From Nitrosopumilus sp. (GTDB taxonomy: Archaea > Thermoproteota > Nitrososphaeria > Nitrososphaerales > Nitrosopumilaceae), in the NCBI GenBank assembly GCA_965218785.1, contig OZ244650.1:604110-668109 (forward strand): a DNA stretch of 64,000 nt, written 5' to 3'. The position numbers and the translations under genes were made by a program. Shown piece after piece: positions 1 to 58,410 of this stretch. Within the stretch, counting starts at the first letter, position 1; each line of letters opens with the position of its first letter. The notes below the pieces were generated by a model that was given only the letters and a program-made list of their open reading frames with translations, had not been told where the DNA came from and did no database searches.

Positions 1-340
1 GTTTGGAAACTATTCTGCACTTGCCTTCCTCTGTTTCTAGTATCGCGCCTTTTGTAATTATGCCTCGTCTTTTGTAATCGTTGTTTGTTGCATTCTCCAA
101 AACCTTTAGAATTTTTGTCTTTTTAACTTTGGCATCCCCTGTTGCTAGATTGACAAAATCAATTGTCTTCAATGCCGTCTTTCTATTGTCGCCGCGAACT
201 CTTCTTGTAATGGTTACCTGAGCTCCGTTTATGGGCTCATTTGGATACCTGTCCAACTCATATTTTCGTCTGGTTCTAAGCGGATGTCTTCTGCCTCCGG
301 TCGTTTTACTAGTTGCCAGATTCTCTACGGACTTTCTCAC
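1..340 (-). CDS. rps8e: 30S ribosomal protein S8e (3' end runs off the window)
   Basis: Manual minus-strand translation from GTG at 340: ...TGGRRHPLRTRRKYELDRYPNEP...RRVRGDNRKTALK...NNDYKRRGIITKGAILETEEGKCRIVSK, typical S8e. Not in the ORF track. Confidence 0.93.
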   Translation of the reverse strand, partial: MRKSVENLATSKTTGGRRHPLRTRRKYELDRYPNEPINGAQVTITRRVRGDNRKTALKTIDFVNLATGDAKVKKTKILKVLENATNNDYKRRGIITKGAILETEEGKCRIVSK

Positions 341-411
341 AAAACCTTGTCTGAATCACTCTAATTTATACAAAACGCAAAAAATCCGCCCTGGGCTAGG
401 TATCTGCTTGA

Positions 412-981
412 CTATGTTGTAATTTGAGGAGTGGGGGCCGTATGGCTCATGCTGGCAGTCTTTCTTACTTTGGAGAATAATCTTTGTTTTAGATCTTCGA
501 CATCCCCCTTGATTCCGAAATATTTTTGGAATTTTTCAGTCGTTGCGTAAATTTTTAATCTGCCGACATTTTGATGACTGATGTAATCTAACTGTCTGAG
601 TTCTTTTAGGTGTGCATAAACTCCTGTACCCCTTGTCTCTACAAGCTGCTTTGATGAGATCGGCTGCATATATGCAATGTAGGATAGGGTCTTGAGTGTC
701 GCATTTGGAAGAACTGGTTTTGAGGCATATCTTTTCACCGTGGCACTATACTCTGGTTTTAACTGAAATACGTATGAACCATCTGGAAGTATGACTACTT
801 CTATTGCCTTGAATGCCGACTTTGTCTTTTTCATGATATTGCCGAGTAATTCCAACGTCTTTGTTCTGGATTCTGTGCCTGATGCCCTGATTATCTCTTC
901 TATCCTGAGTGGTCTTCCTGCAGAGTATAATGCCGCCTCAACCCTTGCAGTTGCCTCACCCATGTTCTCAATTTTAGCCAA
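412..981 (-). CDS. scpB: Segregation and condensation protein B (SMC-Scp complex)
   Basis: VEAALYSAGRPL, TLKTLSYIAYMQPI, LKELRQLDYI, YATTEKFQKYFG are ScpB-type motifs; adjacent to scpA-like gene. Confidence 0.88.
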   Translation of the reverse strand: MAKIENMGEATARVEAALYSAGRPLRIEEIIRASGTESRTKTLELLGNIMKKTKSAFKAIEVVILPDGSYVFQLKPEYSATVKRYASKPVLPNATLKTLSYIAYMQPISSKQLVETRGTGVYAHLKELRQLDYISHQNVGRLKIYATTEKFQKYFGIKGDVEDLKQRLFSKVRKTASMSHTAPTPQITT

Positions 982-1033
982 TTACTATCACTTGTCTGAA
1001 ATCTAGTTAAAGAAACCCTTTCTTCATTTTTGA

Positions 1034-1720
1034 TCAGTTTGTTAACTCTTCTTTAATTGATATGATCCTGATGTCGTCTTCTACCTGCTCTAGATCCACC
1101 TTCTGGTCTCTGGCCAAAAACAGCACGGCAAAGAAGCATCTTATCGAATCAATCCCGTCAAGTTCTGCAATAATATCGCGTAGTAATCCAAATCCTGTCG
1201 GTGAGATTTTCTTCATTATCAGATCCTCGTATTTTCCAATAATGCTTTCAAGTGAAATAAAGTATTCCTGAAAATCAGGTGCGTCAATTGGCTCTATTTC
1301 CAGCGGTTTGTTTCTTCTTGACTGGGGATTTGCAATCGTTCCTATGAGCTTTTGGAGCAGTCCTAGCAGGTCATCTAATGATACCGGATATGTTGATTCA
1401 TGTCTAAATGGTATATCGATTAGTTCAATGTCCACGTCTGTTCTCTGATGTATTGGTTTTTTTGCCATAGCCGCCTTTTGTAGTGCAAAAATACTATCGA
1501 CTTTCATTCTATAGATTAATGAGGATGACAGTGCTGCCATTCCTGCTACTTTGAGATCCTTTTTACCTGATTTTTCTAGAATTTTTACCAGCAGATCCAA
1601 AATCTGGATCAAGTCAATCTCCCAGATATCTTTTTTGGCAACAGATGAGGGACTAAATAGAACATTTATCGGTTCCTGAGAAATACTTTGGGAAGTTTCT
1701 GATTTACTCACACTGTACAT
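1034..1720 (-). CDS. scpA: Segregation and condensation protein A (kleisin-like)
   Basis: DIWEIDLIQIL, ALSSSLIYRMKV and C-terminal CFFAVLFLARDQKVDLEQ resemble archaeal ScpA; directly upstream of scpB. Start moved to ATG 1720 to avoid overlap with the divergent gene. Confidence 0.75.
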   Translation of the reverse strand: MYSVSKSETSQSISQEPINVLFSPSSVAKKDIWEIDLIQILDLLVKILEKSGKKDLKVAGMAALSSSLIYRMKVDSIFALQKAAMAKKPIHQRTDVDIELIDIPFRHESTYPVSLDDLLGLLQKLIGTIANPQSRRNKPLEIEPIDAPDFQEYFISLESIIGKYEDLIMKKISPTGFGLLRDIIAELDGIDSIRCFFAVLFLARDQKVDLEQVEDDIRIISIKEELTN

Positions 1721-1787
1721 TATGTCGTATTCAATAATATCTAAGGGCTCTATTTTTTTCCCATTTCCAGTCAACTCTTATATTGTT

Positions 1788-2882
1788 ATGACGAAAAACC
1801 AACCTATGAAATCCGTCCAGATCCCAAATCCTAATGAGCCCCTTACGATATCCGAATCTGAGACTCCAATACCCCGAGGAAACCAGGTCCTAGTTAAAGT
1901 AAGATCTGTGGGTGTATGTCACAGTGATTTGCACTTGTGGGAGGGCGGATATGATCTTGGCGATGGTCAAATAATGAAAGTCACAGACCGGGGTGTAAAA
2001 TACCCGGTAACTCCGGGACATGAAATTGTCGGAACCGTCGAGAAGATCGGCGATGGCGTTTCTGGAACATCGATAGGAGACGAGGTTTTGGTTTTTCCTT
2101 GGATTGGCTGTGGGGAGTGCCCTGCATGTATGGAAGGAGATGAGAACCTGTGTGATACTCCAAAATCAATGGGTGTTTTTCAAGACGGCGGCTATTCTGA
2201 TTACACCCTAGTTCCCCATTTCAAATATCTGGCAAAACTTGACGGCGTTGATCCTGATGCTGCAACCTCGCTTGCCTGCTCTGGACTCACTGCATATAAT
2301 GCAGTAAAGAAAGCAAACATGCATTCACCAGAATACCTGGTGATAGTGGGAGCCGGCGGTCTGGGATTGATGGCAATTCAGATTGCAAAGGCAATAACAA
2401 AGGCCAAAATCATATGCATTGACAATGATGATAAAAAATTTGACACTGCAAAAAAGATGGGCGCTGACTTTGTTGTAAACACCAGCGTCACTGGTTCCAT
2501 ATCCACCGGAGTCGGAAGTCCTACAGATAAAATAATCTCCATCTGTAACGGCAAGGGCGCAGACAGCGTAATTGATTTTGTAAATGCGCCTCAAACCGTA
2601 AAGGTCGGTCTGGGGTCTTTACGTAAAAGGGGAAACCTGGTACTTGTTGGTCTTTTTGGCGGATCTCTGGAATTATCCCTTGTAACAATCCCACTCAAAT
2701 CCATTACCATTCGTGGCGTATACACTGGAAATTACAGCGACATGGTCGAACTTCTTGATCTTGCAAGAAAGGGAATCATTAATCCGGTCATTTCAAAAAA
2801 ATACACACTTGATGAGGCAAGCAACGCCTTGGAGGATCTCAGGGCACGAAAAATTATCGGCCGTGCCGTGATCAATCCATGA
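1788..2882 (+). CDS. Zinc-dependent alcohol dehydrogenase (MDR family)
   Basis: GVCHSDLH, GHEIVG, structural Zn CGECPAC...C, Rossmann GAGGLG. Confidence 0.92.
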   Translation: MTKNQPMKSVQIPNPNEPLTISESETPIPRGNQVLVKVRSVGVCHSDLHLWEGGYDLGDGQIMKVTDRGVKYPVTPGHEIVGTVEKIGDGVSGTSIGDEVLVFPWIGCGECPACMEGDENLCDTPKSMGVFQDGGYSDYTLVPHFKYLAKLDGVDPDAATSLACSGLTAYNAVKKANMHSPEYLVIVGAGGLGLMAIQIAKAITKAKIICIDNDDKKFDTAKKMGADFVVNTSVTGSISTGVGSPTDKIISICNGKGADSVIDFVNAPQTVKVGLGSLRKRGNLVLVGLFGGSLELSLVTIPLKSITIRGVYTGNYSDMVELLDLARKGIINPVISKKYTLDEASNALEDLRARKIIGRAVINP

Positions 2883-2929
2883 TTTACCACGCCGGCTAAA
2901 CTCTAATGCATTTTTGATTCATGTAGAAT

Positions 2930-3505
2930 CTAGTTTGTGATTTGATCATCTAAAATCCATCCCGATTTTAAAATTCCTTGATCTTCTTGTTCGCCAATTC
3001 CTGTTGCAAACCTCCAGATAAACGGCGCATCAGTGCTCATCTTCTCCTTGATTTTTAAAAGCGATTCCATTTCAGAATTTAGATTCTCATCTGCGGCTCC
3101 GTGTTCCTTGCAAAATTTACATTTTTCATCAAATGTAATCGGATCTATTTGGATTAATGGAAACGTCATACATGCAAGCGGTCTTTCACTGTAAATTTTA
3201 CATGGAAATCCGCCATGTGGTGATTTGTTTCCGCTGTCAGTATCCAGGAAAGGACATGTATTCCCATTCTTCTCGATTCCCATCATCTGATATGCCAAAA
3301 TTTTCGTCGGGATTGAATTCTTATCCTCGGAGATCCCGATTCTTGGCAGTATTTTGATCTTTATCCCATTGGTTTTTGCCAATTTCTCGATTCTTTCTTT
3401 TTCTTCAGGAAGGATTAACACTCCTATTTTTCCAAATTTTTTACTGGGATAATACTCTCTTTCAATACAGCACTGTGCGCATTCTTTTATGCATCTAAAT
3501 TCCAC
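2930..3505 (-). CDS. YkgJ-family cysteine-cluster (Zn/Fe-S) protein
   Basis: CIKECAQCC, CPFLD, CKIYSERPLACMTFP signature. Confidence 0.8.
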   Translation of the reverse strand: MEFRCIKECAQCCIEREYYPSKKFGKIGVLILPEEKERIEKLAKTNGIKIKILPRIGISEDKNSIPTKILAYQMMGIEKNGNTCPFLDTDSGNKSPHGGFPCKIYSERPLACMTFPLIQIDPITFDEKCKFCKEHGAADENLNSEMESLLKIKEKMSTDAPFIWRFATGIGEQEDQGILKSGWILDDQITN

Positions 3506-4412: not shown

Positions 4413-5761
4413 GTGCAAAAAATGAGTGCAAAAATAATAATTGTAATCGCAATAGTCGTTTTGGCAATAGTTACCGCAGGAATAGCGTATTCAGTTGGTC
4501 TTGATCAGCCGCCCAGGATCAACAGACAGTCTCCCTTTATAGATGTGGCCGTGCCATACGATACAGACTATACAGCAATCATAGATGCTGCTGTTCACAC
4601 CACCGATACGACCATACCTGAGAGCGTGTCTCAATCAAACAACGCTTTTACCATCGACTTTTACAGGCAGGTATCAAGTGAACTTGATGCTGACTCGAAC
4701 ATATTCTTCTCACCTACAAGCATGTACATGGCATTTTCCCTCCTGTACGAGGGTGCAAAACAAAACACGGCCGAGGAGATACAGCAGGTATTCGGATTTG
4801 AGCCTGATGAAACGATGCGCCATAACGACACGGCACATGCAATATCCTCCATAAACCGTGACGATCCGCATGCCACGCTTGCCATGGCAAACGCGCTGTG
4901 GCTTGCCGACTGGTTTGAGCCGTATGACTCTTACCTTGATGTCGGGCGCCAGACATATCTTGCTGGCATTAAGACAGTCAGCTTTACTAAACCCGTAGAA
5001 GAGCCGGAGGTGTCAAGCAGATAAATGACTGGGCATCAGATAACACAAACGGCAAGATTCCAAAGGTCATTGGAAAGGAGAGTGTAGACGGCGCAACTGC
5101 CATGGCAATTACCAATGCAATTTACTTCAAGGGTACGTGGCTGACGCAGTTTGATCCCGAGAATACAAAAGAATCTGACTTTTGGACTAGCGAATCAAAA
5201 AACACCACTGCCAATTTTATGGCAAACAATGCTGTATTTCACTATACAAAGTCACATGGTGCACAGGTGCTCAAGATACCATATGATGGTGACAGGCTCT
5301 CCATGCTAGTCATTTTACCCGAGGATAGACATGGAATCGATACGCTAGAGAAATCGCTGACACAGGAGATGATAGAGGGATGGCAGCAGAACATGCACTC
5401 TACAGATGTACTAGTAGAGATGCCAAAGTTCAAGATGAGTACGCATTATGACCTTAAAAAACACCTAAAAAACCTCGGAATAAACGATGTCTTTGTTCCA
5501 GGAACATCAGATCTATCCGGTATTGCATATGTGGGTGACAGGAATCTGTATGTATCTAAAGCCAATCAGGTTGCATTTGTAGATGTAAACGAGGAGGGAA
5601 CAGAGGCCGCCGCCGTCACAACCGGCACGCTGAGTATGACAACACTCTCACACCCATCACCACCACGATTCATTGCAGACCACCCATTCATATTCATAAT
5701 ACAGGACGATGAGAGCGGTGCAATCCTGTTCATGGGACGGCTCTCTGATCCCAGTTCCTGA
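4413..5761 (+). pseudogene. Serpin with N-terminal membrane anchor, split by one frameshift near 5000-5015
   Basis: ORF1 has NAFTIDFY, NIFFSPTS, ANALW. The shifted frame continues KQINDWASDNTNGKIPK...AITNAIYFKGTW to EEGTEAAAVT and FIADHPFIFII. Confidence 0.9.
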
Positions 5762-6145: not shown

Positions 6146-6269
6146 TCCCGCGGGGCGGAGTTGAACCACCGACAACCCGGTTTCTGTATGCCTGATATGC
6201 TGCTATTTGATCAGCCATCTAAAGCCAACAACTACAGCCGGAAGCTCTACCAGGCTGAGCTACCACGGG
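6146..6269 (-). tRNA. trnY: tRNA-Tyr(GUA) with ~50-nt intron at position 37/38 (6182-6231)
   Basis: Acceptor stem CCCGTGG/CCGCGGG-A with C1:G72; D arm AGCTCAGCCTGGTAGAGC; anticodon GTA at 6235-6233; T loop TTCAACT; CTGT/ACAG helix flanked by 3-nt bulges (BHB-like). Confidence 0.93.
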
Positions 6270-11616: not shown

Positions 11617-11790
11617 TCATTGATTATATTCTGTCAATCCACATTTTCCACAAGTTTGTCTGTCCTTGTGTTTTGACATAAACACGCCTTTTCCGCATCT
11701 TGAACAGTCCTTTCTGTCTCTTGAAATTTTGTCTCCATCAACTTTGTAATATGAATAAACACTTGGGCTAGAGCCTTTCTTGCCTGCCAT
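11617..11790 (-). CDS. rps27ae: 30S ribosomal protein S27ae
   Basis: Manual translation [57 protein letters not shown] (57 aa, below the ORF-track cutoff). Confidence 0.95.
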
Positions 11791-12326
11791 TATTCAGATT
11801 TCGCCTCTTTTTTATCTGGGGTTTCGTCTGCTTTATCCTTTACATCCCCTGCTGGTTTTTCTTCTACAACAGCTTTATCCTTTACATCCCCTGCTGGTTT
11901 TTCTTCTGCAGCAGCGGCATCCCCTGCTGGTTTTTCTTCTACAACAGCTTTATCCTTTACATCCCCTGCTGGTTTTTCTTCTGCAGCAGCGGCATCCCCT
12001 GCTGGTTTTTCTGCAGCCGCAGCGGCCTCTTCTGCAAGTTTAGCTTTGGTTTTTTCCAGTCTTGAGAAGATTGTTGGATCAACGTGTTTTTTTGCCAACA
12101 CTTCATCATCATAAACATAGAAAGTACCTGTAATCGTAGGTCTTCCTACATGGGTTTTTAATCCCATTGGAATTACAACCTTGCCATCTAGTTTGAATTC
12201 CTTGGTAATCATATCTACTGCTTCCATCTTTTTGAGCCTGCCTCCCAATCCTGCAAAATTACAAGTTAGCTCCCTTCTAGACAGAAAAGTGTTATCAACA
12301 TCTGTAATTGTCTCAATAATGGACAT
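11790..12326 (-). CDS. rps24e: 30S ribosomal protein S24e with repetitive acidic C-terminal tail
   Basis: [29 protein letters not shown]; upstream of rps27ae as is usual in archaea. Start taken at MSIIET. Confidence 0.88.
11830..12026. repeat. In-frame 33-bp and 42-bp tandem units in the rps24e tail
   Basis: ATCCCCTGCTGGTTTTTCTTCT recurs; encodes [11 protein letters not shown] and [14 protein letters not shown]. Confidence 0.9.
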
Positions 12327-12411
12327 ATGTATCCCAAATCCTTTGGGCATTTTATATAAACCTTGATTGAAATTAGCGAAGAAATTTAAGAAATCCATGT
12401 CAAATAACTCC

Positions 12412-12972
12412 ATGGAAAGATACCTGCTTCATTTTAAAAATGAGGGACATGTCCCCAAACACTGCAGAGAACTGGCGTACAAGGCAAGGGATCTTGCATC
12501 TGGGATGAATATATCAATAAGACTTGCCAGGGTGGCCACCAAATTTATCGAATTTGACGTGGCCTCTAAAAAAGAGGATCTGGATTTACTTGTTCAAAAA
12601 CTGTCCCCGATTGGAACCATTGATAACGTCAGACATGTCTTTGAAGAGCATATAGAGAAAGAACAAGGAATCACTGACGGGATATTCTACTTTAACAATG
12701 AACGATTTTGGGAATGTCATGAGGCATTTGAAGGTGTCTGGCTCCAGTGTTATGGACGAGAAAAAGAACTGGTTCAGGGCATTATTCTAGTTGCAGTTGC
12801 GTTTGCCCATAAACAAGAAAATGAAGAAAGCATCGGTATTGGAATGCTGAGCCGGGCTTTAGAAAAATTAGGAACCTCCCCTACCGTATATCACTCCATC
12901 GATGTTGATAGAATAAGGAAAAAATCCGTTCAAATGCAACAGGCAAACAAGTTGACTAGATTTGAGATTTAA
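12412..12972 (+). CDS. DUF309-family protein
   Basis: FNNERFWECHEAFEGVW...LVQGIILVAVAFAH. Confidence 0.8.
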   Translation: MERYLLHFKNEGHVPKHCRELAYKARDLASGMNISIRLARVATKFIEFDVASKKEDLDLLVQKLSPIGTIDNVRHVFEEHIEKEQGITDGIFYFNNERFWECHEAFEGVWLQCYGREKELVQGIILVAVAFAHKQENEESIGIGMLSRALEKLGTSPTVYHSIDVDRIRKKSVQMQQANKLTRFEI

Positions 12973-14242: not shown

Positions 14243-14396
14243 AATATCCCTGCTTATCTAAGATCACATACTTTGTTTTAAAGCTATCAAAACATGGTTA
14301 TGTCGGGCTATCGAGACCTAGAAAATCAGATTGAATTATTCAAAATATGAATTCTAATAATAGATAATTTAAATACAAATTTTATAAACAGCCCAT

Positions 14397-15692
14397 GTGA
14401 GATTAGAAAAAGTTTTTGGAGTAATTAATGATGATCTATCAACATATGTATCAAGGCAAGAAATAGATGACTGCTTTAAGAAAGCGTTTGAGCAAAAAAG
14501 GCAACTTGTAGTATATGGCTCATCTAAACAAGGAAAGACCACACTTCTAAATGCCCATATAGCGCAGGAAAATAAAATTACAGTTCAATGTTCTCCAACA
14601 ATAACTTTACACGATATTTATAAAACCATTCTTAAAAAATTACAGATTACAATTCAATCTAGTAGTTCAATTGAAAATGAAGACAGTACCAAAACTAAGT
14701 TTAATTTTAAAGTAAAAATTCCCATGTTAGCTGAAGCGGGAATAGAAGTTGAAAAATCATCAGGTGAACGAGAAACAAATTCCGAATTATAGATGGATAT
14801 TGACAGTGCACAAGATGTGGCAGAAATACTGAAAAAATATTTTCCTGAAAAAATCGTCATACTTGAAAATTTTCATTATTTAGAAGAGAAGGAACAAAAA
14901 TTATTTGCTTTTGATTTAAGAACATTTCAAGATATTGATGTGCGAGTAATAATTTTAGGAATTTGGAGAGAAAGAAACAGATTAACTCAGTATAATGGAG
15001 ATTTACAAGACAGAATAATTGAATTACCTGTAGAACCTTGGACGGGAGAGCATTTACAAGAAATAATCAAGTTGGGTGAAAAATCTCTCAATATAGATAT
15101 GAGTGACATTAGGAATGATCTGATTAAAGAATCATTTGGTAATGTTGGAATGTTACAAGAATTATGTAAAGAATGTTGTTATGATGCACACATAATTGAA
15201 ACTGAAGATCTAAGGAAATTAACAAATGATAATTTACAAAATGCTATTGCTAAAATTACTAATTCGTATGCAAGTAGATTCCACAGAGCACTTGAAACAT
15301 TTGCAGATGCTAAACCAAGACAATCTCCAGATGGAAGTCAAGGGTTAGGAATGCCATATTTTTTTGTACGTGTTGTTCTTTCAAATTCCGATGCACGACA
15401 AATTAAAAATGGATTATCTGTGTACGATTTGAGAAAAGCAATTAAAAAAATCCATCCAAATCACGATAATAGAAGATTTGATAGTGCTCTTACTATTTTT
15501 CTCAATAGAATAAACATATATCAAAAAAATCACGGCATTACTCCCTCAATTTTTGACTATGATACCAATTTACGACAATTAAATATTGTTGATCCTAATT
15601 TCTTCTTTTTTGTTAGACATTATAATCATGATGAATTTTTAGAGGGTTTAAAACTACCACTTGGATATGCAAAAAAAACTCCAAGTTCATAA
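14397..15692 (+). CDS. AT-rich orphan P-loop ATPase
   Basis: Walker A GSSKQGKTT, Walker B-like IVILENFH; visibly more AT-rich than its neighbours. Confidence 0.75.
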
Positions 15693-15696
15693 ATCT

Positions 15697-16479
15697 CAGA
15701 ATTTTCAGGAATTTCAGGAATTTCAGGAATTTCAGGAATTTGAGGAATTTCAGGAATTTCAGGAATTTCAGGAATTTGAGGAATTTCAGGAATTTCAGGA
15801 AGGTTTGAGGAATTTGAGGAATTTCAGGAATTTGAGGAATTTCAGGAATTTCAGGAATTTCAGGAATTTCAGGAATTTCAGGAATTTCAGGAATTTCAGG
15901 AATTTCAGGAATTTGAGGAATTTCAGGAATTTCAGGAATTTCAGGAGGAATTTCAGGAATTTGAGGAATTTCAGAAATTTCAGGAATTTCAGGAATTTCA
16001 GGAATTTCAGGAATTTCAGGAATTTCAGGAATTTCAGGAATTTCAGGAATTTCAGGAATTTCAGGAAGCTTTGAGGAATTTCAGGAATTTCAGGAAGGAA
16101 TTTCAGGAATTTCAGGAATTTCAGGAATTTCAGGAATTTGAGGAATTTCAGGAATTTGAGGAATTTCAGGAATTTCAGGAATTTCAGGAATTTCAGGAAT
16201 TTCAGGAATTTCAGGGAGCTTTGAATTTCAGGAATTTCAGGAAGGTTTGAGGAATTTCAGGAATTTCAGGAATTTCAGGAATTTGAGGAATTTCAGGAAA
16301 GTTTCAGGAATTTCAGGAATTTGAGGAATTTCAGGAATTTGAGGAATTTGAGGAATTTGAGGAATTTGAGGAATTTGAGGAATTTCAGGAATTTCAGGAG
16401 AAAGTTTCAGGAATTTCAGGAATTTGAGGAATTTCAGGAATTTGAGGAATTTGAGGAATTTGAGGAATTTGAGGAATTT
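15697..16479. repeat. Tandem array of ~85 9-bp units, GGAATTT(C/G)A, with a few variant interruptions
   Basis: Directly visible in the sequence. Confidence 0.97.
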
Positions 16480-16572
16480 TAGAGCTGACACCTCTAAATG
16501 AGAGCACATTTTGCATGTTTTTAGTCACGCACTTATTTATTTCTCATACCCCATGTGATAAGAATTCTTCAA

Positions 16573-16720
16573 GAGGGTCTGTTGCAAATTGGTGATATAT
16601 GCATGAACTCCAATCTTGATAAGATCCTGATTTCATGTCTCGATCATTAGACAGAACCCAAAACATGCGATCAAAAAAAACCCAAGACTCGTTGTTTTAT
16701 TTTTCCAAAACATAATTTTT
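16573..16720 (-). mobile_element. Possible IS end remnant (IS1182/IS5-like)
   Basis: GAGGGTCTGTTGCAAA resembles IS terminal repeats; minus strand reads FGKIKQ..LGF, like a transposase C-terminus. Degraded, and no partner end was found. Confidence 0.25.
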
Positions 16721-41500: not shown

Positions 41501-44500
41501 ATACAATTGATACTACGGCACCTTTCTACCGTTCTGCTGTAACCACTGATGCAAACACGATTACAATTACAGTATCAGAACCCCTTGACGAAAGTGTTGA
41601 TGCTGTTGCCTCAGACTTTAGCGTTACATCCAACGGCATTGCCAACGGCCTTACCGCCCTACCTGAAATAAATGACAATATCATAACCCTAAGGGTAGGC
41701 ACGCCAATTCTCGGCGGTCATGCGATTACAGTGCAATATTCTGGTATGAATCTAATTGATGCAGCAGGTAACGCACTTGAGATCTTTACAAGGAATCCGA
41801 CAAACACCTTGGATGTTCCAACAACTCCTGCCGTAACTGGGGTAACTGGACTAGGCGGTTTTTACTTTTCGGGTTTCTCCATTGACATCGAGGTAACATT
41901 TGACGAGGCAGTAACCGTATCTACAGAATCTGGAATCCCGCGAATAATCCTGGATACTGGTGTTACTGGTGGTACAGCAGTCAACTATGTCAGAACCGAG
42001 AGTGGTGGAACTGTCTTGGTATTCGACTATTCAACTGCCCCCGGACACAATTCTGAGAAACTCAACTATGTCAACACGGGCTCCCTCATACTAAACGGCG
42101 GAAGCATAAATGCCGCTGATGATGCTAATCCTGCCGATCTGACACTTCCTGCAGTTGCTTCTACAGCATCACTTGGCAACTCTAACATAGTGGTGGATAC
42201 TGTAATACCCAGTGTAACCATATCCTCTGATAACCTCCTCACAAAATCTCGCAGCATCACATTTACTGCCGAGTTTACAGAGGACGTGACAGGCTTTGTT
42301 GATACTACAAATGATATCGTGGTATCTGGTGCGGCAACAACTGTCACAACAATAACTCCCGTTAACGGCACCCATTACGACTTTGTTGTGGATGCCACCG
42401 CTGATGGCGCAGTCACCGTATCCATCCCCGCAGATGCGGCAATGGATAGGGCAGATAACGGCAATACGGTATCTGACCCATACACCATCACAGTCGATAC
42501 TGTAGCACCCACCGTGACTATATCTACTGATACCGCTAATGGCGGCTCGCAAAACACCAACACAATATCATACAATGTCGACTTTAGCGAGGGAGTCCAC
42601 GACTTTGTCGAAGGTGATATTACCGTAACTGGAACGGCGCCCTTTGGTACACCCGCAATAAGAAACTTTAATGAAGTCGGTCCAGAAGAGTATACGTTTG
42701 ACGTGGTAACCACCGATAATGGTACAGTCCTGGTAACGATTCCCGCAGGTGTGGCAACAGATGATGCGACCAACGGCAACGAGGCATCTGCCACATATAC
42801 TGTCACAGTTGATGATGACATACCCACTGTCACCATAAGCGCTACTGACAGTGCTGGCACTGCTACCGCTAATGGCGGCTCGCAAAACGACAACACAATA
42901 TCATACACTGCCACCTTTAGCAAGCCTGTAACAGGCTTTGAAATAGATGATATCACGATATCTGGATCAGCACCACTTGGTACGCCTGCAGTAACAAACT
43001 TTGATATAACAAACGCACCCGAGTATACGTTTGACGTGGTAACCACCAATGATGGCACAGTCCTTGTATCCATCGCGGAAAATGTGGCAGCAGATACGGC
43101 AGGCAACGGCAACGCGGCATCTGGCGTATATACCGTTACAGTTGATAATGTCGTACCCACCGTGATGCTGGGTTCTACTACTACTGCAGTTGATGGCGGC
43201 TCGCAAAACACCAGCATAGCATCCTACACTGTCATGTTTAGCGAGGATGTCGAGAACTTTGTCGAAGGTGATATCACAGTAACTGGAACGGCATCAGGTG
43301 GTTCCCCTGGAGTATCAAGCTTTGCAGGAATCGGTGCCTCATACACCTTTAACGTGGAGACCAGCGCTGATGGTACAGTCGAAGTAACGATTCCCGCAGG
43401 TGTGGCAGCAGATGCGGCAGGCAACCTCAACACGGAATCCCTCATGCACACTATTACAGTTGATACTACCGTGCCAACTGTGGGGATAACCACTGATACT
43501 GCTAATGGCGGCTCGCAAAACACCAACACAATATCATACACTGCCACCTTTAGCGAGGCAGTCAACAACTTTGTCGTAGATGATATCACAGTAACTGGAA
43601 CGGCATCCGGCGGTTCGCCTACAGCAACAATCTTTGACGGAAGCGGTGCCTCATATACCTTTAACGTGGTAACCAGCGCTGATGGTACAGTCGAGGTAAT
43701 GATTCCCGCAAATGTGGCAACAGATACGGCAAACAACGACAACATGGAATCTGGCACATACACCGTCACAGTTGATACCCTCGCGCCTACCATCATGTCT
43801 GTGGAAACCACTGATAGTACCACGATCGTAATTACCGCATTAGAACCCCTTGCAGAAATTACTCCTACGGGAGTCTTTACCGTTACTGACAACACCGTTA
43901 ATGGCATTCCTACAATATCTGGCAGTACCATAACCATAATCGTTGGCACATCAATAGTGTTTGGAGACACACCTGAAGTAACATATGTTGGCACTGACCT
44001 AACTGATGTCGCCGGAAACGCACTTGAGGCGATTACCGACCGGACTGTAACAAACAACGTGCCAGTCGCTGGCGCGCCAGTTGTAACCGGCGTAGCGGCA
44101 CCGCCCGGTTCATACAAAGAGGGTGATACCATTAATATCACCGTAACATTTAACGAGGCAGTAACCGTATCTACAACATCTGGAACCCCGCAACTGACGC
44201 TGGAGACTGGTGATCCTGATGCGGTAGCTGTCTATACCCTCACCGGCTCTACTGGAACTGCCCTGATATTCGAGTATACGGTTGCTGCAGGAGAGAATTC
44301 TGCTGATCTCAACTATGTGAGTATAAACTCGCTTGACCTAAACGGCGGAACCATAGTTGCTGTAGCTCCCGGCGCTACTCCCGCATCCACGACACTTCCT
44401 GCTATTACCGCCGTTGAGTCACTTGGCGGCAGCTCTGCTGTAATTGTGGATACTATGGCGCCAACTGTAGTCATAACTAACATTCAAACCACTAATATCG

Positions 44501-50500: not shown

Positions 50501-51456
50501 CTTCTGGTGCACAGGCATCCTGCATCGAGATAGGACAGGCAGGCTCTGTGATAAATACGGATAAACCGATACGGATACAGCTTGGAGGACAGGCAGGCAA
50601 CGTTCCATGGTACTCTCAGGGCGGTGCTGCAGCTACCCAGATAACTGCAGCGTGTACTGCCGATGATCTTACCCCTGTATCAGCGCAGCTTGACGGCACC
50701 GGGGAGTGCTTCATAAATACCAATCTTGACCTGATAATCTGGACTGCACACTTTACAGTATTTGGCTCAAACCTGGTAACACCACCACCGGTTGTTGTTG
50801 TTGCACCAGAATCAGAACCAACACCCGCATCCGAACCCGCTCCTAGAAGATCAGGCGGAGGAGGACACGGCAACACACTTGATCCACGTGTATGTGGCGG
50901 CGTACTGTGCAGTGAACAGGGATCTAACAACCAGTCTTCAGGCACCCCTTCAACTAGCAGGTCTTCAAGCGACCAAATCCGTACCGTACCACGTGTAACT
51001 CCTGAGCAAACACAGGAACCTGACAGAACACAAAATGGTGCAGATCCGGCACTTGGCACACCAGAGCCTGAACCATCCCCACTGCCAAAGACTCCAGAAC
51101 CAGGCTTAACGAATCCGGCACCCGGCTCTACTGTGGATCCAGAACCGGGCTCAACGAATCCGGCACCCGGATTACTTGTGGATCCAGAACCGGGCTCAAC
51201 GAATCCGGCACCCGGATTACTTGTGGATCCAGAACCGGGCTCAACTAGTCCTGCACCCGGATTACTTGTGGACCCAGAACCAGGCTCAACTAGTCCTGCA
51301 CCCGGATTACTTGTGGATCCAGAACCAGGCTCAACGAATCCGGCACCCGGCTCTACTGTGGACCCAGAACCAGGCTCTACTGTGGACCCAGAACCAGAAC
51401 AAGCCGATGGCATATTTGAACAGATTGGCAGATGGTTCACATCATTATTTGGATAA
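38521..51456 (+). CDS. Giant (4311 aa) secreted modular surface protein/adhesin
   Basis: Signal peptide; two 7-repeat beta-propeller-like blocks; ~28 Ig-like modules of three types; Pro-rich linker; amphipathic C-terminus. Confidence 0.9.
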   Translation: MTILPIGLLAILFAFSAGLVLSDANAQTAVLSEIDSFALPDNGYRHNLIHLSDEFYVSSHTAIHTSATDENALSSVVYLRLYTIINGEINLIRDLAVTPTGGGSESTVRSETENPNSTGLARVDVDRLALSYTSSGTNIIRTYNVTISSPNPDFVRDKQRVFQSVGDANNHSLVALDKETLVLSYSLPDGSPDGYVQLFSIPHSGITLDLENTLRYTDIQGRYPSLVKLDDDRVVLAYRTVRAQVYIQTVDIVTNDMANDTLNARLAFTTIDSDERTAYNSLIRVDDNTVALAYSRIGMSTNLGDGDGRIRVFDVADTTGAISSTGSGAVFYDDAETAGSEERIHLSSLALLDSDTIAVAYRGEGGAGFIRLYDIASNGALTANGEPLEHDSANGAFNSLIAIDDTTLALVYGGDLARTDLSTSSEVPNTIKLFSTVSDVMPPTILSAETTDSNTIVLTASELLEGMANIGDFTVSSSTLSGHTVFPNTVTAAEISGSTIILTTGTVISGGTITIAVEYRGNSITDGVGNALARFTDQSVSNREVGVPIITSVSATPGTYKIGDTIDITVTLNTSVFVSNSNGRLELNFGTITREVPISSSVTNSNTITLPFPYTVATGDTSANLNYVDTNSFLGSSGHFTGPEGLLNLALPPTTSADSLGGSNIIVTGIAPIISTAVTTGSTTIVLTASEALTGTIATGDFTVDGNTVMGIPILSDGTTITITVDTAIIGGNTVTVDYGGTALVNAAGNALATFDDRPVTNNEAPIPVITDVSATGGPYTAGNTVPITVTYDLAVRVVGNPELLLATGDPVAGTPNTPAVYHSSPTPTTLLFNYMVAATDNSADLNYVGTDSLTLSGSDSILSTADSAVASLTLPDPSVNSFGGSNIVVDNVAPFPSINRAVPTNPTLPFDIEYAVLFSEPVTGLMASEIMVTGTASGGSPVVSDFVGTPPTDRYTFNVEITADGTVEVTIPAGVAMDRVNIGNTALLTSVIDTIDTTAPFYRSAVTTDANTITITVSEPLDESVDAVASDFSVTSNGIANGLTALPEINDNIITLRVGTPILGGHAITVQYSGMNLIDAAGNALEIFTRNPTNTLDVPTTPAVTGVTGLGGFYFSGFSIDIEVTFDEAVTVSTESGIPRIILDTGVTGGTAVNYVRTESGGTVLVFDYSTAPGHNSEKLNYVNTGSLILNGGSINAADDANPADLTLPAVASTASLGNSNIVVDTVIPSVTISSDNLLTKSRSITFTAEFTEDVTGFVDTTNDIVVSGAATTVTTITPVNGTHYDFVVDATADGAVTVSIPADAAMDRADNGNTVSDPYTITVDTVAPTVTISTDTANGGSQNTNTISYNVDFSEGVHDFVEGDITVTGTAPFGTPAIRNFNEVGPEEYTFDVVTTDNGTVLVTIPAGVATDDATNGNEASATYTVTVDDDIPTVTISATDSAGTATANGGSQNDNTISYTATFSKPVTGFEIDDITISGSAPLGTPAVTNFDITNAPEYTFDVVTTNDGTVLVSIAENVAADTAGNGNAASGVYTVTVDNVVPTVMLGSTTTAVDGGSQNTSIASYTVMFSEDVENFVEGDITVTGTASGGSPGVSSFAGIGASYTFNVETSADGTVEVTIPAGVAADAAGNLNTESLMHTITVDTTVPTVGITTDTANGGSQNTNTISYTATFSEAVNNFVVDDITVTGTASGGSPTATIFDGSGASYTFNVVTSADGTVEVMIPANVATDTANNDNMESGTYTVTVDTLAPTIMSVETTDSTTIVITALEPLAEITPTGVFTVTDNTVNGIPTISGSTITIIVGTSIVFGDTPEVTYVGTDLTDVAGNALEAITDRTVTNNVPVAGAPVVTGVAAPPGSYKEGDTINITVTFNEAVTVSTTSGTPQLTLETGDPDAVAVYTLTGSTGTALIFEYTVAAGENSADLNYVSINSLDLNGGTIVAVAPGATPASTTLPAITAVESLGGSSAVIVDTMAPTVVITNIQTTNIGGFSSSRVLTFIATFSEEVNNFVVGDITVGGTATVTAAASVMQQPFGDRSIYTIAVTAPADGTVVVSIPLNAAADDAGNGNMASDPYTITVDTAAPTVTITADDVNANGFTNSAAITYNAKFNEVVSDFDNANDITLGGTATATVSAPTAINGTDYTFVVTSTADATSANDGTVVVSIPVNAVSDAAGNNNAASAPYTVTIDTVVSGVQITTITDNDGTQNSNTISYSAVFGEAVTGFDLADIDVSGTASNNAPVASSFSGSGLSYAFDVVVASGDGTVIVRIPANVAVDRAGNGHTASNTYTVTVDTALPTVEITADGVANGGSQTTDTVSYTATFNEEVVNFVVADIEVSGTASFGTPAVTDFDATNAPVYTFDVMTTDDGTVVVSIPEGAATDAGTNGNVASGDHTVTVDTSIPSVTGVAATGGSYMASDRIDIIVTFDEQVEVTGEPTLTLDTGAVVSFNAFVDTSRLTLQFPYTVTAGQNSDDLNYVDVDSLDLSGGSITAFDNGIPASLLLPATTLDDSLGGSDVIVDTTAPRFLSAQTTTPNTIEIIISEPLDQTMTAGTFTVATNTVSGTPVISGSTITITVGMAITSADTLTVSYTTDTGGIADIAGNALETFANPETVTNNVPDATAPTVLSVSAPPGTHTTGATIDITVAFDEAVDVTGVPQLTLDTGAVVDYTSGTGGTDLLFQYTVAAGENSADLNYANVNSLALNSGTINVAGGTTAVNLVLPATTAATSLGGSSAVIVDTTAPTVTISNDQTTSDGETATTRTLDYTVEFSETVTGFAMNDITVSGAATAPDAAPAGSDDTYTFTVTAPADGTVTVSIPAGAAADEAGNDNIVSADYTVIIDATAPTIMSAATSGSTTIVITASEPLAEITPTGDFTVTDNTVNGIPTISGSTITIIVGTSIVFGDTPEVTYVGTDLTDVAGNALAAITSQTVTNNVPVAGVPVVTGVAAPPGTHNAGDTIDITVTFNEAVDVTGTPQLTLETGDTDAVADYTSTGSTGTALIFEYTVAAGENSADLNYVGTTSLDLNGGTILAEADSVTPASLTLPATTDATSLGGSSAVVVDAVVPTVTISASVDNDGSTNDGSVFYTATFSEDVTGFDVAADITVSGTAAATLTTPTGSGSTYTFAATTTNGGTITVLIPADAAADTATNGNTASATYTVTVNSLSQINSLDLTPGGYRHNLVHFTGDYYVSSHTVTRANSDDAALWNFDTVLNLYSIIGGDITLIGSRTVETRTQDKTTTINEFTTHPRSTAVTAVDDDTIAVTYVASSTSRLRTYDVDTASTTAPFGTSVLTSLGTSGTLTQEQTHNHSLVTLDATRLVVAYSYPDASTTNYIQIINVVSGTGALTPETPVEITDTLGQYSSLVRLDGNTVVVAYRADANEYGYLRAYNISADNTIAPGDAVQIEGSRIAHTSLIRVDDDTVAVAYSALGLDTSTTDGQANLKVYNVDTNAAITGGTGVASSVYYDDAVADVTFEEHAHLNSLALLNTDTLAVAYRGDGPAGNVRLYDIDLSTNGLTARGEAFVHDTVNGAFNSLVSINDETLALVYGGDLPSVIANTDTPNTIKTLAVLGPDTTVPTIVAAVTSDANTIVLTASEFLARTAATPVFTVPGNAVTGTVILGTTVTITVDTQISLGDTPTINYAVGGAITDAAGNALAAFAALPVTNNVDDATRPTAIITNADIADGDTTLTDTTASYTVTFNEPVPGFDVADIIISGTASGGAPVPSNFETATADISYTFDVVTTSDGTVIVSVPENVAADPAGNQNTASNTYTITVDAEVPEIVSARLSTDTITIIYSKLVTTDASHYDDVMSPAGTPHTIDSFIDATPDDANYTVISLILSTTPAGTTATIDIAGPTKTSDSTSALSPLEDYPVTAEVNVVLDATDNRIAVTDFDSTLATVRYPSTVDATLDYSSLIDGESVTPTATTNTEIVVTATGIRGGDIQVTIPATTTFSSSTFDGILILPTDSGSGCDSTAITSGAQASCIEIGQAGSVINTDKPIRIQLGGQAGNVPWYSQGGAAATQITAACTADDLTPVSAQLDGTGECFINTNLDLIIWTAHFTVFGSNLVTPPPVVVVAPESEPTPASEPAPRRSGGGGHGNTLDPRVCGGVLCSEQGSNNQSSGTPSTSRSSSDQIRTVPRVTPEQTQEPDRTQNGADPALGTPEPEPSPLPKTPEPGLTNPAPGSTVDPEPGSTNPAPGLLVDPEPGSTNPAPGLLVDPEPGSTSPAPGLLVDPEPGSTSPAPGLLVDPEPGSTNPAPGSTVDPEPGSTVDPEPEQADGIFEQIGRWFTSLFG
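43815..44330. repeat. Near-identical intragenic duplicate of ~47109-47610
   Basis: Long exact matches at offset ~3294 bp, e.g. CTTTACCGTTACTGACAACACCGTTAATGGC...GCCGGAAACGCACTTG. Confidence 0.9.
51136..51396. repeat. 45-bp tandem repeat encoding DPEPGST(N/S)PAPG(LL/ST)V, 5 full copies plus partials
   Basis: Visible in both DNA and protein. Confidence 0.92.
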
Positions 51457-57599: not shown

Positions 57600-58300
57600 C
57601 ATCAAAATATGTTGTATTATATGAAAAGTACATCCGCTAGTCATCTGCATCATTCTCCATCCATTCTGGGTTGTTTTTTCTGATCGTATCTGTGGTCTTT
57701 TTGTTTCTAAACGCCATAAGCGGGGTTCATAGTTATCAATGTCAAGTGAAAAGTGCAGTCTTGACTCGTTGTAATAGTCTACATCTCCTTAAGAGTACGA
57801 TAATGGAATATCTCATCTTCTATCGTCCTGTGAAATCTCTCCAGCTTGCCGTTTGCCTGCGGATGATATGGTCTGGAATTTATCAGCACGATGTCTTTTG
57901 CCAAAAGCTCCTCCTCAAACAAGACAAGTCTCCATGTTCCATTTATCTGCATTTTTTTCCTGCCGTTTTGTCCCACAAAATACGAACCAGTATCTGAGAG
58001 TATGGATGCAGGTGCACCGAATCTCTTGATTGCCAGTCTGAGCAACATTACTGTATTCTCAGATGTGGCATTCTCTGCGGAGGATTCTTTAGCTACGGAA
58101 CAGCATCCTATGCAGTTTGATTCATCTGATCGCTATTGTGTAGTATGTCCGGAATGAATTTTAGTAAGATCCCATTTTCCTGTTTTTTGAACTGGATACT
58201 TGTGTTATAGATTCCATCTTTTTCCCCTAATGATTGGTTGTTTTTCTTGGAATATATGCCTTTCTGCTATATGTGGTATTCCCTGTACACCCGAATTTCG
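57600..58300 (-). mobile_element. Degraded IS481-like DDE (rve) transposase
   Basis: ILSDTGSYF, SRPYHPQANGKLERFHRTIE, then shifted YNESRLHFSLD; several frameshifts and stops. Confidence 0.8.
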
Positions 58301-58410
58301 TTTTTATTCAGATATGATTATTTTAGAACGGTACAATCTGTCTGAATGTTGAGAAATATCAAAATAAAATAAAGTAACATAAGTTTTGATCGTCACCATA
58401 TAATGAAAAA

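What the first reader, a model, noticed from the sequence alone, without database searches (positions are those of the whole stretch)
15697..16479. ~780-bp array of 9-bp units attached to an orphan ATPase
Seen: ~85 tandem copies of GGAATTT(C/G)A starting within ~5 bp of the ATPase stop. An array this long is very unusual in a compact archaeal genome. Each unit is near-dyad (GGAATTTC vs GAAATTCC) and contains an RAATTY-type site. There are no unique spacers. Inference: a protein-loading (centromere/iteron-like) site, a decoy array for a sequence-specific nuclease or methylase, or a hypervariable contingency locus acting with the ATPase.
Basis: partly seen in the sequence, partly recalled or inferred. 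Interest (0 to 1): 0.75.

Follow-up and report, generated by a model that had tools for sequence, protein, structure and literature searches.

The report
Hypervariable 9-bp minisatellite inside a transposon
The ~790-bp run of 9-bp repeats is real, but it is a fast-changing, non-coding repeat tract carried, with a broken ATPase gene, inside a small jumping-gene remnant (IS6 family) in a Nitrosopumilus archaeon, and nothing found here shows that it has a job of its own.

Summary
Observation confirmed. There are 86.6 copies of a 9-bp unit at 15692-16479, starting at the last base of the ATPase stop codon.

New context:
- **Transposon remnant.** ATPase plus array form a 2,363-bp insertion (14296-16658). 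It has ~36-bp terminal inverted repeats (GGTTMTGTC...) and an 8-bp target duplication (CAAAACAT). It is absent from 99.7%-identical relatives. Related copies carry an IS6-family transposase, intact or decayed. The window copy has lost it, and its ATPase has a CAG>TAG nonsense codon.
- **The ATPase.** It belongs to a candidate single-gene defence family, PADLOC PDC-S59.
- **Clade-wide association.** In Nitrosopumilus relatives (ATPase ≥67% identical), 10 of 11 loci have a tandem array anchored at the same stop codon. Copy number runs from 3 to 90 and each lineage has its own unit.
- **No array elsewhere.** About 78 more distant homologues have none.
- **Fast turnover.** Copy number differs (10.8 vs 3.8) between alleles whose flanks are 100% identical.
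- **Non-coding.** No reading frame survives the array. The near-dyad is no better than permuted 9-mers, and the motif is not dispersed elsewhere in the window.

Best reading (about 0.6): a slippage-driven minisatellite hitchhiking at the cargo/core junction of the transposon. A terminator/insulator or protein-loading role is not excluded.

The parts
14288..14295 (.). Left copy of the 8-bp target-site duplication, CAAAACAT
   Evidence: The empty site in L001/L002 has a single CAAAACAT. The window has one copy on each side of the insertion.
14296..14331 (+). Left terminal inverted repeat (IRL): GGTTATGTCGGGCTATCGAGACCTAGAAAATCAGAT
   Evidence: Inverted-repeat pair I5. The same ends bound the related elements in L003, L008, L009, L069, L011 and L107.
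14368..14375 (+). TATA-like box TTTAAATA, about 22 nt upstream of the GTG start (inferred archaeal promoter)
   Evidence: The block GATTAATTTAAATA..TTTTATGAAC is conserved upstream of the ATPase in all Nitrosopumilus loci, including those without TIRs. Promoter function is inferred, not shown.
14397..15692 (+). AAA+ P-loop ATPase gene of the PADLOC PDC-S59 family. It is a pseudogene here, or split into 131 + 299 aa, because of an in-frame TAG at 14790-14792 (CAG in L009).
   Evidence: Translation; Walker A GSSKQGKTT; Pfam AAA_22/TniB/nSTAND6, weak. Relatives hit PDC-S59 at E 1e-69 to 1e-72. L009 is 96.8% identical and intact. The T at 14790 is confirmed in an independent run, X1, while X2/X3 have C. 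The AF2 model resembles the ORC/Cdc6, RFC and TnsC AAA+ clade.
15692..16479 (+). The 9-bp tandem array: 86.6 copies of AATTTCAGG/AATTTGAGG plus irregular 11- and 13-nt units. Non-coding.
   Evidence: Stops or frameshifts occur in all six frames.
16480..16622 (.). 143-bp spacer between array and right end. Related 'type A' elements carry a small ORF and the IS6 transposase here; both are deleted in the window.
   Evidence: 96.6% identical to the same stretch of L009. No transposase homology in this stretch or anywhere in the window. L003, L008 and L109 carry small ORF + transposase at this position.
16623..16658 (-). Right terminal inverted repeat (IRR). Read on the - strand: GGTTCTGTCTAATGATCGAGACATGAAATCAGGATC
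16659..16666 (.). Right copy of the 8-bp target-site duplication, CAAAACAT

Best explanation
The array is a non-coding, hypervariable 9-bp minisatellite (VNTR). It sits at the junction between the cargo gene (a PDC-S59-type AAA+ ATPase) and the core module (small ORF + DDE transposase) of an IS6-family cargo-carrying transposon found in Nitrosopumilus.

It arose once, at or overlapping the ATPase stop codon (..AGTTCATAA|ATTTCAGG..), in the ancestor of one Nitrosopumilus ATPase clade. Since then it has expanded, contracted and homogenised by replication slippage and unequal recombination. That explains why each lineage has its own unit and its own copy number. It travels passively with the element.

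The window holds a decayed, non-autonomous copy: the transposase module is deleted and the ATPase carries a nonsense codon, while the TIRs and the 8-bp target duplication are still intact. The insertion is polymorphic in the population.

Shown: the anatomy, the mobility signature, the clade-wide association, the fast turnover and the non-coding status. Inferred: slippage as the mechanism, and the absence of any sequence-specific function.
For: 1. Insertion. The window matches L001/L002 at 99.7-99.9% except for 14296..16658. That stretch is bounded by 8-bp CAAAACAT duplications and ~36-bp imperfect TIRs. An empty-site joint is also seen in run X4.

2. IS6 family. TIRs begin GGTTCTGT and the duplication is 8 bp. 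A stitched decayed transposase from L008 hits Pfam DDE_Tnp_IS240 at 51.9 bits against a cut-off of 27. Intact 371-aa homologues are named 'IS6 family transposase [Nitrosopumilus ureiphilus]'. An 8-bp target repeat is the family rule (PMC7986276). The complete element L109 has TSD TTAAAAAT, intact ATPase, array, small ORF and a 375-aa transposase.

3. The array is anchored at the stop codon in 10 of 11 loci of the ≥67% clade:
- window: 86.6 copies
- L009: 90.4 copies
- L008: 29.6 copies of an 18-mer
- L003: 25.6 copies
- L109: 10.8 copies
- L005/L006: about 10 and 8 copies
- L069: 9.7 copies
- L011: 5.2 copies
- L112: 3.4 copies
- L108: 3.2 copies of a 32-mer
. Nothing above 2.4 copies lies next to the stop in about 78 more distant homologues.

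4. Fast turnover.
- L109 vs L110: gene 1299/1299 identical, 600 nt downstream 600/600 identical, but 10.8 vs 3.8 copies.
- L005 vs L006: flanks 99.1% identical, arrays differ.
- Window vs L009: flanks 96.6-96.8% identical with at most one gap column, arrays 81% with 69 gap columns.

5. Concerted evolution. Arrays are perfect in L003, L008 and L109, and units are lineage-specific.

6. Non-coding. All six frames are broken by 11- and 13-nt units. L009's 38-bp higher-order block is not a multiple of 3.

7. No sign of a special motif. The dyad is not better than permuted units. The motif is not enriched outside the array. The resemblance to the TIR inner motif is within chance, p 0.1-0.5.

8. Arrays persist or grow beside dead ATPase genes (window, L011, L069) and beside dead or missing transposases (L003, L008, window, L009).
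Against: - Position and period have been kept across a clade whose ATPase has diverged to 67-72% identity. That is long for a purely neutral repeat.
- An ATTTYA core (a T-run on the ATPase sense strand) is retained in every lineage.
- The array is present in the one fully intact element (L109), so it is not only a product of decay.
- Slippage was not observed directly. No long reads were available to measure within-population length variation at this locus.
- No transcript or binding data exist.
Confidence: 0.6

Rival explanations
1. Multi-terminator / insulator. The array is a series of weak archaeal oligo-T termination signals (T3-T5 on the ATPase sense strand). They would stop cargo transcription in the tail-to-tail spacer and shield the small ORF and transposase module from read-through.
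For: The array always starts at the stop codon and fills the convergent spacer between the ATPase and the small ORF. The only part of the unit conserved across lineages is the T-run plus A (AATTTCA, AATTTTA, ATTTTTA, ATTTTCA). The array is present in the intact element L109. That archaeal RNA polymerase terminates at U-tracts is general knowledge, not tested here.
Against: The window's main unit has only T3. Eighty-six copies are far more than termination would need. Copy number ranges from 3 to 90 with no sign of an optimum. In the window and L009 the module to be insulated is gone, yet these arrays are the longest. No RNA data were found. The bacterial-type terminator scan finds nothing, but it does not model archaeal signals.
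Confidence: 0.15
2. Protein-loading array (iteron- or centromere-like, or a titration sink). The units would be binding sites for the AAA+ ATPase, the IS6 transposase, the small AbrB-like protein or a host chromatin protein.
For: Tight physical linkage to the ATPase gene across the clade. The ATPase model resembles DNA-loading AAA+ proteins: ORC/Cdc6 (1w5t, TM 0.45-0.49) and the TnsC filament (7m99, TM-target 0.63). The TIR inner segment (GACCTGAAAT..) looks like the unit on the - strand (CCTGAAATT).
Against: About 78 homologues work without any array. The unit drifts between lineages at 3-4 of 9 positions. The TIR resemblance is within chance. The motif is not found elsewhere in 64 kb. IS6 relatives with other cargo (L107) have the small ORF and transposase but no array. 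The period of 9 bp is off the helical repeat. The element is a chromosomal transposon with no replication or partition need. The window's ATPase is truncated.
Confidence: 0.1
3. RNA-level element. The array would be transcribed as the ATPase 3'UTR and form a long G·U-rich hairpin or a protein/sRNA sponge affecting mRNA stability.
For: A 231-nt stretch folds to -87.5 kcal/mol as + strand RNA, z = -13 against shuffles. The + strand folds better than the - strand for most long-array units.
Against: The right null is tandem arrays of permuted 9-mers, and these fold as well or better in 46% of cases. The units of L011 and L069 do not fold at all on the + strand. There is no evidence of transcription and no Rfam family.
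Confidence: 0.05
4. Decoy or target array for a sequence-specific nuclease or methylase (RAATTY/GAATTY-like site).
For: Each canonical unit contains GAATTT.
Against: The site is absent from the units of L011 (CAATTT), L069 and L109 (ATTTTCAGC). No restriction-modification gene lies in the element. Methylation could not be examined.
Confidence: 0.03
5. Coding repeat or phase-variable contingency tract, for example a PEI/PQI- or KFL-repeat protein on the - strand, or a C-terminal extension of the ATPase.
For: Four of six frames of a perfect unit are open. Similar 9-mers do encode PEI/PKI peptide repeats in unrelated metagenomic proteins.
Against: In the window every frame is broken within 140 codons or fewer by +2/+4 indel units and TGA units. 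L009 has regular 10- and 11-nt units. The TAA stop before the array is conserved in all array-bearing loci. The tract lies outside any coding sequence or promoter.
Confidence: 0.03
6. Assembly artefact: a collapsed or inflated repeat.
For: Short-read contigs cannot span the array. One Logan contig shows a collapsed form that skips 619 bp. The copy number is unverified.
Against: The array has a unique, non-periodic pattern of variant units. Independent assemblies of four other genomes have 230-838-bp arrays at the same place. k-mer depth rises several-fold to about 17-fold inside the array, as expected for a true multi-copy tract.
Confidence: 0.02

Closest known systems
Prokaryotic VNTR / minisatellite loci (for example intergenic MIRU-VNTRs of mycobacteria and the 9-12-bp VNTRs used for typing Yersinia or Bacillus).
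   Same: Head-to-tail short units. Copy number differs between otherwise identical alleles. Homogenisation within each array. Non-coding position between genes.
   Different: This array is embedded in a mobile element and so is present at different chromosomal sites in different genomes. It is anchored on a stop codon across a whole gene clade. It reaches about 90 copies in a ~2-Mb archaeal genome.
IS6-family insertion sequences (IS26, IS257, archaeal ISH14-like); review PMC7986276
   Same: DDE_Tnp_IS240 transposase in related copies. TIRs starting GGTTCTG. 8-bp target duplication. Non-autonomous derivatives known.
   Different: Typical IS6 members are 0.7-0.9 kb and have a single gene. ISfinder lists only one member with a passenger gene. 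These elements are 2.4-3.4 kb. They carry an ATPase (or other cargo, sometimes a tRNA), a conserved antisense small ORF, a 371-375-aa transposase with an N-terminal Zn-finger/SWIM-like extension, and an internal minisatellite. The window copy has no transposase.
PADLOC PDC-S59 candidate single-gene defence ATPase
   Same: Relatives of the window's ATPase match the model end to end at E 1e-69 to 1e-72. Walker A and the ENFHYL Walker-B region are invariant across archaea and bacteria.
   Different: The defence role is a prediction only, and no paper mentions the name. The window's copy is interrupted by a stop. No bacterial member examined has the array.
Iteron / parC / parS-type repeat arrays next to partition or initiator ATPases
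   Same: A run of short direct repeats immediately beside a gene for a DNA-dependent-type NTPase.
   Different: No replicon and no ParA/ParB or Rep. The unit is not conserved. There are far more copies, with 9-bp spacing. The association is absent from most of the ATPase family.
Tandem-repeat tracts inside eukaryotic transposons that seed satellites (general knowledge)
   Same: An internal short tandem repeat that expands inside a TIR element and spreads with it.
   Different: This is a prokaryotic host. There is a single array per element, and no evidence of spread as an independent satellite: the metagenome scan found only unrelated coding repeats.

Membership tests
VNTR / minisatellite (non-coding tandem repeat evolving by slippage or unequal exchange) | Head-to-tail copies of a short unit, far beyond chance | tested here: met
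   86.6 copies, 89% match. 74 motif hits in the array against 0.07 expected in the window.
VNTR / minisatellite (non-coding tandem repeat evolving by slippage or unequal exchange) | Copy number differs between alleles with near-identical flanks | tested here: met
   L109 vs L110: 10.8 vs 3.8 copies with 100% identical gene and 600-nt downstream flank. L005 vs L006 and window vs L009 also differ. Not measured at the window's own locus.
VNTR / minisatellite (non-coding tandem repeat evolving by slippage or unequal exchange) | Not translated | tested here: met
   All six frames are interrupted. Unit lengths of 10, 11 and 13 nt occur.
VNTR / minisatellite (non-coding tandem repeat evolving by slippage or unequal exchange) | Within-array homogenisation with between-lineage divergence (concerted evolution) | tested here: met
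   Perfect arrays with different units: L003 AATTTTAGG, L008 18-mer, L109 ATTTTCAGC, L011 AATTTCACC.
IS6-family transposable element (context of the array) | DDE transposase of the IS6/IS240 type | tested here: not met
   No transposase homology in the window, so the window copy is at most a non-autonomous derivative. The feature is met in relatives: L008 stitched pseudogene at 51.9 bits on PF13610 and an intact 375-aa gene in L109.
IS6-family transposable element (context of the array) | 8-bp direct target duplication | tested here: met
   CAAAACAT at 14288-14295 and 16659-16666, single in the empty site. Also L003 CCGATTAG, L107 ACACAATG and L109 TTAAAAAT. Not seen for L009.
IS6-family transposable element (context of the array) | Short terminal inverted repeats of the GG(C/T)(A/T)CTG type | tested here: met
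   GGTTATGTC.. / GGTTCTGTC... The comparison with the IS26/IS257 IR consensus is from memory.
Iteron / centromere-like protein-loading array | Cognate partition or initiator protein (ParA/ParB/Rep) and a replicon that needs it | tested here: not met
   The ATPase model is in the AAA+ ORC/RFC/TnsC clade. The locus is a chromosomal transposon insertion.
Iteron / centromere-like protein-loading array | Sequence-specific binding of a protein to the unit | not testable with these tools
   Needs EMSA, pull-down or ChIP.
Iteron / centromere-like protein-loading array | Unit sequence conserved with the protein | tested here: inconclusive
   Only the core ATTTYA is kept, and 3-4 of 9 positions vary between lineages. 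There is no array in about 78 homologues.
Contingency (phase-variable) locus | Repeat tract inside a coding sequence or promoter, so that copy number switches expression | tested here: not met
   The tract begins at the stop codon and lies in a tail-to-tail spacer. Its period is a multiple of 3.
CRISPR array | Repeats separated by unique spacers | tested here: not met
   Units are contiguous.
PADLOC PDC-S59 (the ATPase) | Full-length match to the family HMM | tested here: met
   P0002, which is 87% identical to the window's gene, matches at E 2.6e-71 over residues 2-410. The window's own gene is split by TAG.
PADLOC PDC-S59 (the ATPase) | Anti-phage activity | not testable with these tools
   Candidate system only. 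No paper found.

The most novel reading that the evidence does not exclude
The stop-codon-anchored array is a selected cis-element of this cargo transposon, not junk. It could be a tunable stack of weak terminators that insulates the IS6 transposase from cargo transcription. Or it could be a loading/titration platform for the TnsC/ORC-like AAA+ ATPase or the transposase, in which case an IS6 element would have acquired an IstB/TnsC-style helper with its own DNA site. Retention of position, period and a T-run core through about 30% protein divergence, and presence in the intact element L109, leave this open.
Probability: 0.2. Interest if true: 0.65.

Novelty: new member of a known kind. Interest (0 to 1): 0.38.

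Why it matters
- **Reclassification.** An apparently mysterious 'array + orphan ATPase' becomes a defined mobile unit. It is an IS6-family cargo transposon, rare for that family, and archaeal members listed so far are Euryarchaeota and Crenarchaeota. It ferries a candidate defence ATPase between Nitrosopumilus genomes and sites.
- **Practical use.** The minisatellite is the fastest-evolving part of these genomes seen here. It could serve as a strain-level marker in long-read metagenomes of ammonia-oxidising archaea.
- **If the array is functional.** It would be a new kind of cis-regulatory module in a prokaryotic transposon.
- **If it is not.** It is a clean natural example of minisatellite birth at a stop codon and of concerted evolution in an archaeon.

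Tried and rejected
1. **Coding repeat.** Six-frame translation shows every frame broken. Rejected.
2. **Special dyad or hairpin.** The RNA fold gives z = -13 against sequence shuffles. But arrays of permuted or random 9-mers fold as well (46% at or below -66 kcal/mol; DNA 70%). Rejected as evidence.
3. **Array unit derived from, or mimicking, the TIR inner motif (GACCTGAAAT..).** The longest exact matches of 6-8 nt are reached by 10-52% of permutations. Not significant.
4. **Dispersed copies of the motif as genomic binding sites.** One or two per 64 kb, roughly as expected.
5. **Metagenome and viral scans for the array pattern.** These gave 12 + 1 hits, all short (4-14 copies). None has the ATPase or the transposase. 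The five examined in detail (L089, L094, L096, L098, L100) lie within open reading frames reading as PEI/PKI/SSG-type peptide repeats. No further information on this element.
6. **RNA evidence.** No RNA runs were identified.
7. **Population copy number.** Only Logan contigs were available, and they break at the array.
8. **Bacterial promoter/terminator scan.** Nothing above chance, and it does not model archaeal signals.
9. **Rfam.** No family in the region.
10. **Literature.** 'PDC-S59' is in no paper. The thaumarchaeal mobile-element survey (PMC6563490) never uses the term 'tandem repeat' and the passages read describe no such element.

Full report
**1.

Tandem Repeats Finder reports one array at 15692..16479: period 9, 86.6 copies, 89% matches. 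Parsing gives 53 AATTTCAGG and 20 AATTTGAGG units plus about ten irregular pieces, among them 11-mers such as AAGGTTTGAGG and a 13-mer. GGAATTTSAGG occurs 75 times in the window, 74 of them in the array, against 0.07 expected from shuffles. The array begins at the last base of the ATPase stop codon (TAA, 15690-15692). There are no spacers.

**2. The 'orphan ATPase' is one broken gene**

ORFs 14397..14792 and 14793..15692 are a single ~430-codon reading frame. It has Walker A (GSSKQGKTT) and an ENFHYL Walker-B region, and it is interrupted by an in-frame TAG at 14790-14792.

- The closest relative, L009 (96.8% identical), has CAG there and is intact.
- The T is confirmed in an independent public run (X1). 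Two other runs have C.
- Relatives match PADLOC's candidate single-gene defence family PDC-S59 end to end, at E 1e-69 to 1e-72.
- Pfam gives only weak AAA_22/TniB/nSTAND hits.
- An AlphaFold model (pLDDT 82) resembles the initiator/clamp-loader AAA+ clade: RFC, archaeal ORC/Cdc6 and the TnsC filament.
- The family is highly conserved (~40% identity) across many bacterial phyla and archaea.

**3. ATPase plus array is a transposon insertion**

Two metagenome contigs, L001 and L002, are 99.7-99.9% identical to the window on both sides but lack 14296..16658. The empty site reads ..ATCAAAACAT|GCGATC... The occupied site has CAAAACAT on both sides (14288-14295 and 16659-16666). It also has imperfect ~36-bp terminal inverted repeats, GGTTATGTCGGGCTATCGAGACCTAGAAAATCAGAT and GGTTCTGTCTAATGATCGAGACATGAAATCAGGATC. 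The island is AT-rich, at 32% GC against 41% for the window. Run X4 holds the empty-site joint. Runs X1-X3 show several different flanks joined to the element's ends, so the element sits at more than one site in those communities.

**4. The element belongs to the IS6 family**

- Related copies in L003 and L008 have the same TIRs. Between array and right end they carry a conserved 62-aa antisense ORF and a decayed DDE transposase.
- The stitched L008 protein scores 51.9 bits on PF13610 (DDE_Tnp_IS240), against a cut-off of 27.
- Intact 371-aa homologues are annotated 'IS6 family transposase [Nitrosopumilus ureiphilus]'.
- An 8-bp target repeat is the family's hallmark, and only one passenger-carrying member is listed in ISfinder (PMC7986276).
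- In N. ureiphilus (L107) an intact relative has the layout IRL | cargo (214-aa ORF + tRNA-Leu) | small ORF(-) | transposase | IRR, with TSD ACACAATG and no array.
- L109 is a complete ATPase-carrying element. It has TSD TTAAAAAT, an intact ATPase, (ATTTTCAGC)x10.8, the small ORF, an intact 375-aa transposase and a tRNA-Ile.

The array therefore sits at the cargo/core junction, in the tail-to-tail spacer between the ATPase and the small ORF. The window and L009 are a deletion derivative with no small ORF and no transposase.

**5.

I fetched the ATPase loci and ran TRF on the 3' flank of each.

| Locus | ATPase identity to window | Array at the stop codon |
|---|---|---|
| window | – | 86.6 copies |
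| L009 | 97% | 90.4 copies, 838 bp |
| L008 | 87% | 29.6 perfect copies of an 18-mer, 532 bp |
| L003 | 87% | 25.6 perfect copies of AATTTTAGG |
| L112 | 85% | 3.4 copies |
| L011 | ~80-89% | 5.2 copies of AATTTCACC |
| L069 | ~82-93% | 9.7 copies of ATTTCAACA/ATTTCACAA |
| L005 / L006 | 76% | about 10 / 8 copies |
| L109 / L110 | 73% | 10.8 / 3.8 copies of ATTTTCAGC |
| L108 | 67% | 3.2 copies of a 32-mer, readable as 9+9+9+5 |
| L004 | 89% | none; homology ends exactly where the array would begin, next to an IS66 transposase |

None of the Nitrosopumilus homologues at 60-63% identity (L010, L012, L113-115) has an array. Nor do about 75 bacterial and other archaeal loci, where nothing exceeds 2.4 copies next to the stop. 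The array is thus a lineage-specific companion of this gene cassette, not a feature of the ATPase family.

**6. The array is the fastest-evolving part**

- L109 and L110 have identical ATPase genes (1299/1299) and identical 600-nt downstream flanks, but 10.8 vs 3.8 copies.
- L005 and L006 (flanks 99.1% identical) differ in unit number and composition.
- Window and L009 are 96.6-96.8% identical in both flanks, with at most one gap column. Their arrays align at 81% with 69 gap columns. L009 also has other units (AATCTTAGG, GAGGTTTGAGG) in 38/73-bp higher-order blocks.
- Perfect arrays with lineage-specific units (L003, L008, L109) indicate recent expansion and homogenisation.
- Only the core ATTTYA is shared. 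GGAATT, the dyad and the RAATTY site are not.

**7. Tests of function**

- Coding: all six frames are broken.
- Hairpin or dyad: the RNA fold looks striking against sequence shuffles (z = -13). It is ordinary against the proper null of tandem arrays of permuted 9-mers, 46% of which do as well. The units of L011 and L069 do not fold.
- Dispersed sites: none beyond expectation.
- Similarity to the TIR inner motif: within chance.
- Same 9-mers elsewhere: only short runs of 4-14 copies with no ATPase or transposase nearby. The five loci examined lie in open frames reading as PEI/PKI/SSG-type peptide repeats in unrelated contexts.
- Link to a working ATPase or transposase: long arrays sit beside a nonsense-mutated ATPase (window) and beside dead or absent transposases (L003, L008, L009, window). 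Short arrays sit beside frameshifted or deleted ATPases (L011, L069).
- Transcription, methylation and protein binding could not be examined.

**8. Interpretation**

The best-supported reading (about 0.6) is a non-coding minisatellite. It was born at the ATPase stop codon: the last 9 nt, AGTTCATAA, already look like a diverged unit, and in L005 the stop-containing unit TTCATAAAT is itself repeated. It is maintained by slippage or unequal exchange and hitchhikes in an IS6-family cargo transposon. The window holds a decayed, non-autonomous copy.

What keeps functional readings alive, about 0.35 in total, is threefold. The position, the 9-bp period and a sense-strand T-run have been retained across a clade diverged to about 70% protein identity. 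The array is also present in the fully intact element L109. The most plausible functional rivals are a stack of weak archaeal terminators insulating the transposase module (0.15) and a protein-loading or titration array (0.10).

**9. Novelty and score**

Tandem repeats and IS6 elements are both known kinds. New here are three things:

- an IS6-family cargo transposon in Nitrosopumilus carrying a candidate defence ATPase;
- a clade-wide, stop-codon-anchored, hypervariable 9-bp minisatellite inside it;
- arrays of up to about 90 copies in ~2-Mb genomes.

Without evidence of function this is a well-explained curiosity and a potential strain marker rather than a new system. Interest is 0.38.

Noticed in passing
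window 6146-6269 (-): Rfam tRNA hit (43 bits) spanning 124 nt, which ARAGORN does not call. Probably an intron-containing archaeal tRNA.
   Followed up: no
window 11843-12012: Perfect 75-bp x 2.3 tandem duplication inside the ORF 11790-12413 (-), which carries a ribosomal S24e domain. The same duplication is present in L001/L002.
   Followed up: no
window 42526-43778 and 51093-51377: 312-333-bp repeats (about 5 copies) and 45-bp x 6.3 repeats in a GC-rich (47-51%) stretch at 40-52 kb. They look like giant repetitive protein genes.
   Followed up: no
window 58001-60000: GC drops to 29%. Possibly another inserted island.
   Followed up: no
L008 748-2038: A separate ~1.3-kb element with a 381-aa TnpB/Cas12f-like ORF (PF07282 TNB domain). 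It is bounded by inverted GGTTCTG(T/C)GAAGTTATCGGGAGTTA ends that resemble the IS6-type TIR start.
   Followed up: partly
L107 3814-6174 (Nitrosopumilus ureiphilus CP026995): Intact IS6-family element with the same architecture but different cargo: a 214-aa ORF and a tRNA-Leu(CAG) gene at 4592-4668. TSD ACACAATG, no array.
   Followed up: partly
L109 ~110-3466: Complete ATPase-carrying element that also holds a tRNA-Ile(TAT) gene (3289-3374) between transposase and IRR. tRNA genes as IS6 cargo appear in two elements.
   Followed up: partly
L003 7536-7724 (-), L107 4750-4938 (-), L109 1683-1943 (-), L101 4754-4921 (-): A small ORF (55-86 aa), divergent from the transposase gene, is conserved at 39-60% identity across these IS6 elements. 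By eye it looks AbrB/SpoVT-like (..RIPKPI..LG.P..KFVI..). Pfam is silent.
   Followed up: partly
L113 553-7725: Three copies of a 60%-identical ATPase homologue within 8 kb, in alternating orientation and without arrays.
   Followed up: no
L010 3790-3900: Two short clusters of CTGAAATCA repeats (x2.7), the reverse complement of the TGATTTCAG array variant, lie upstream of a 61%-identical ATPase that has no downstream array.
   Followed up: no
L009 3900 and 6312: This element, 97% identical to the window's, has intact TIRs but no matching 8-bp duplication (flanks CTAAAATT / TTTCCTTT). This would fit IS6-type cointegrate or recombination history.
   Followed up: no
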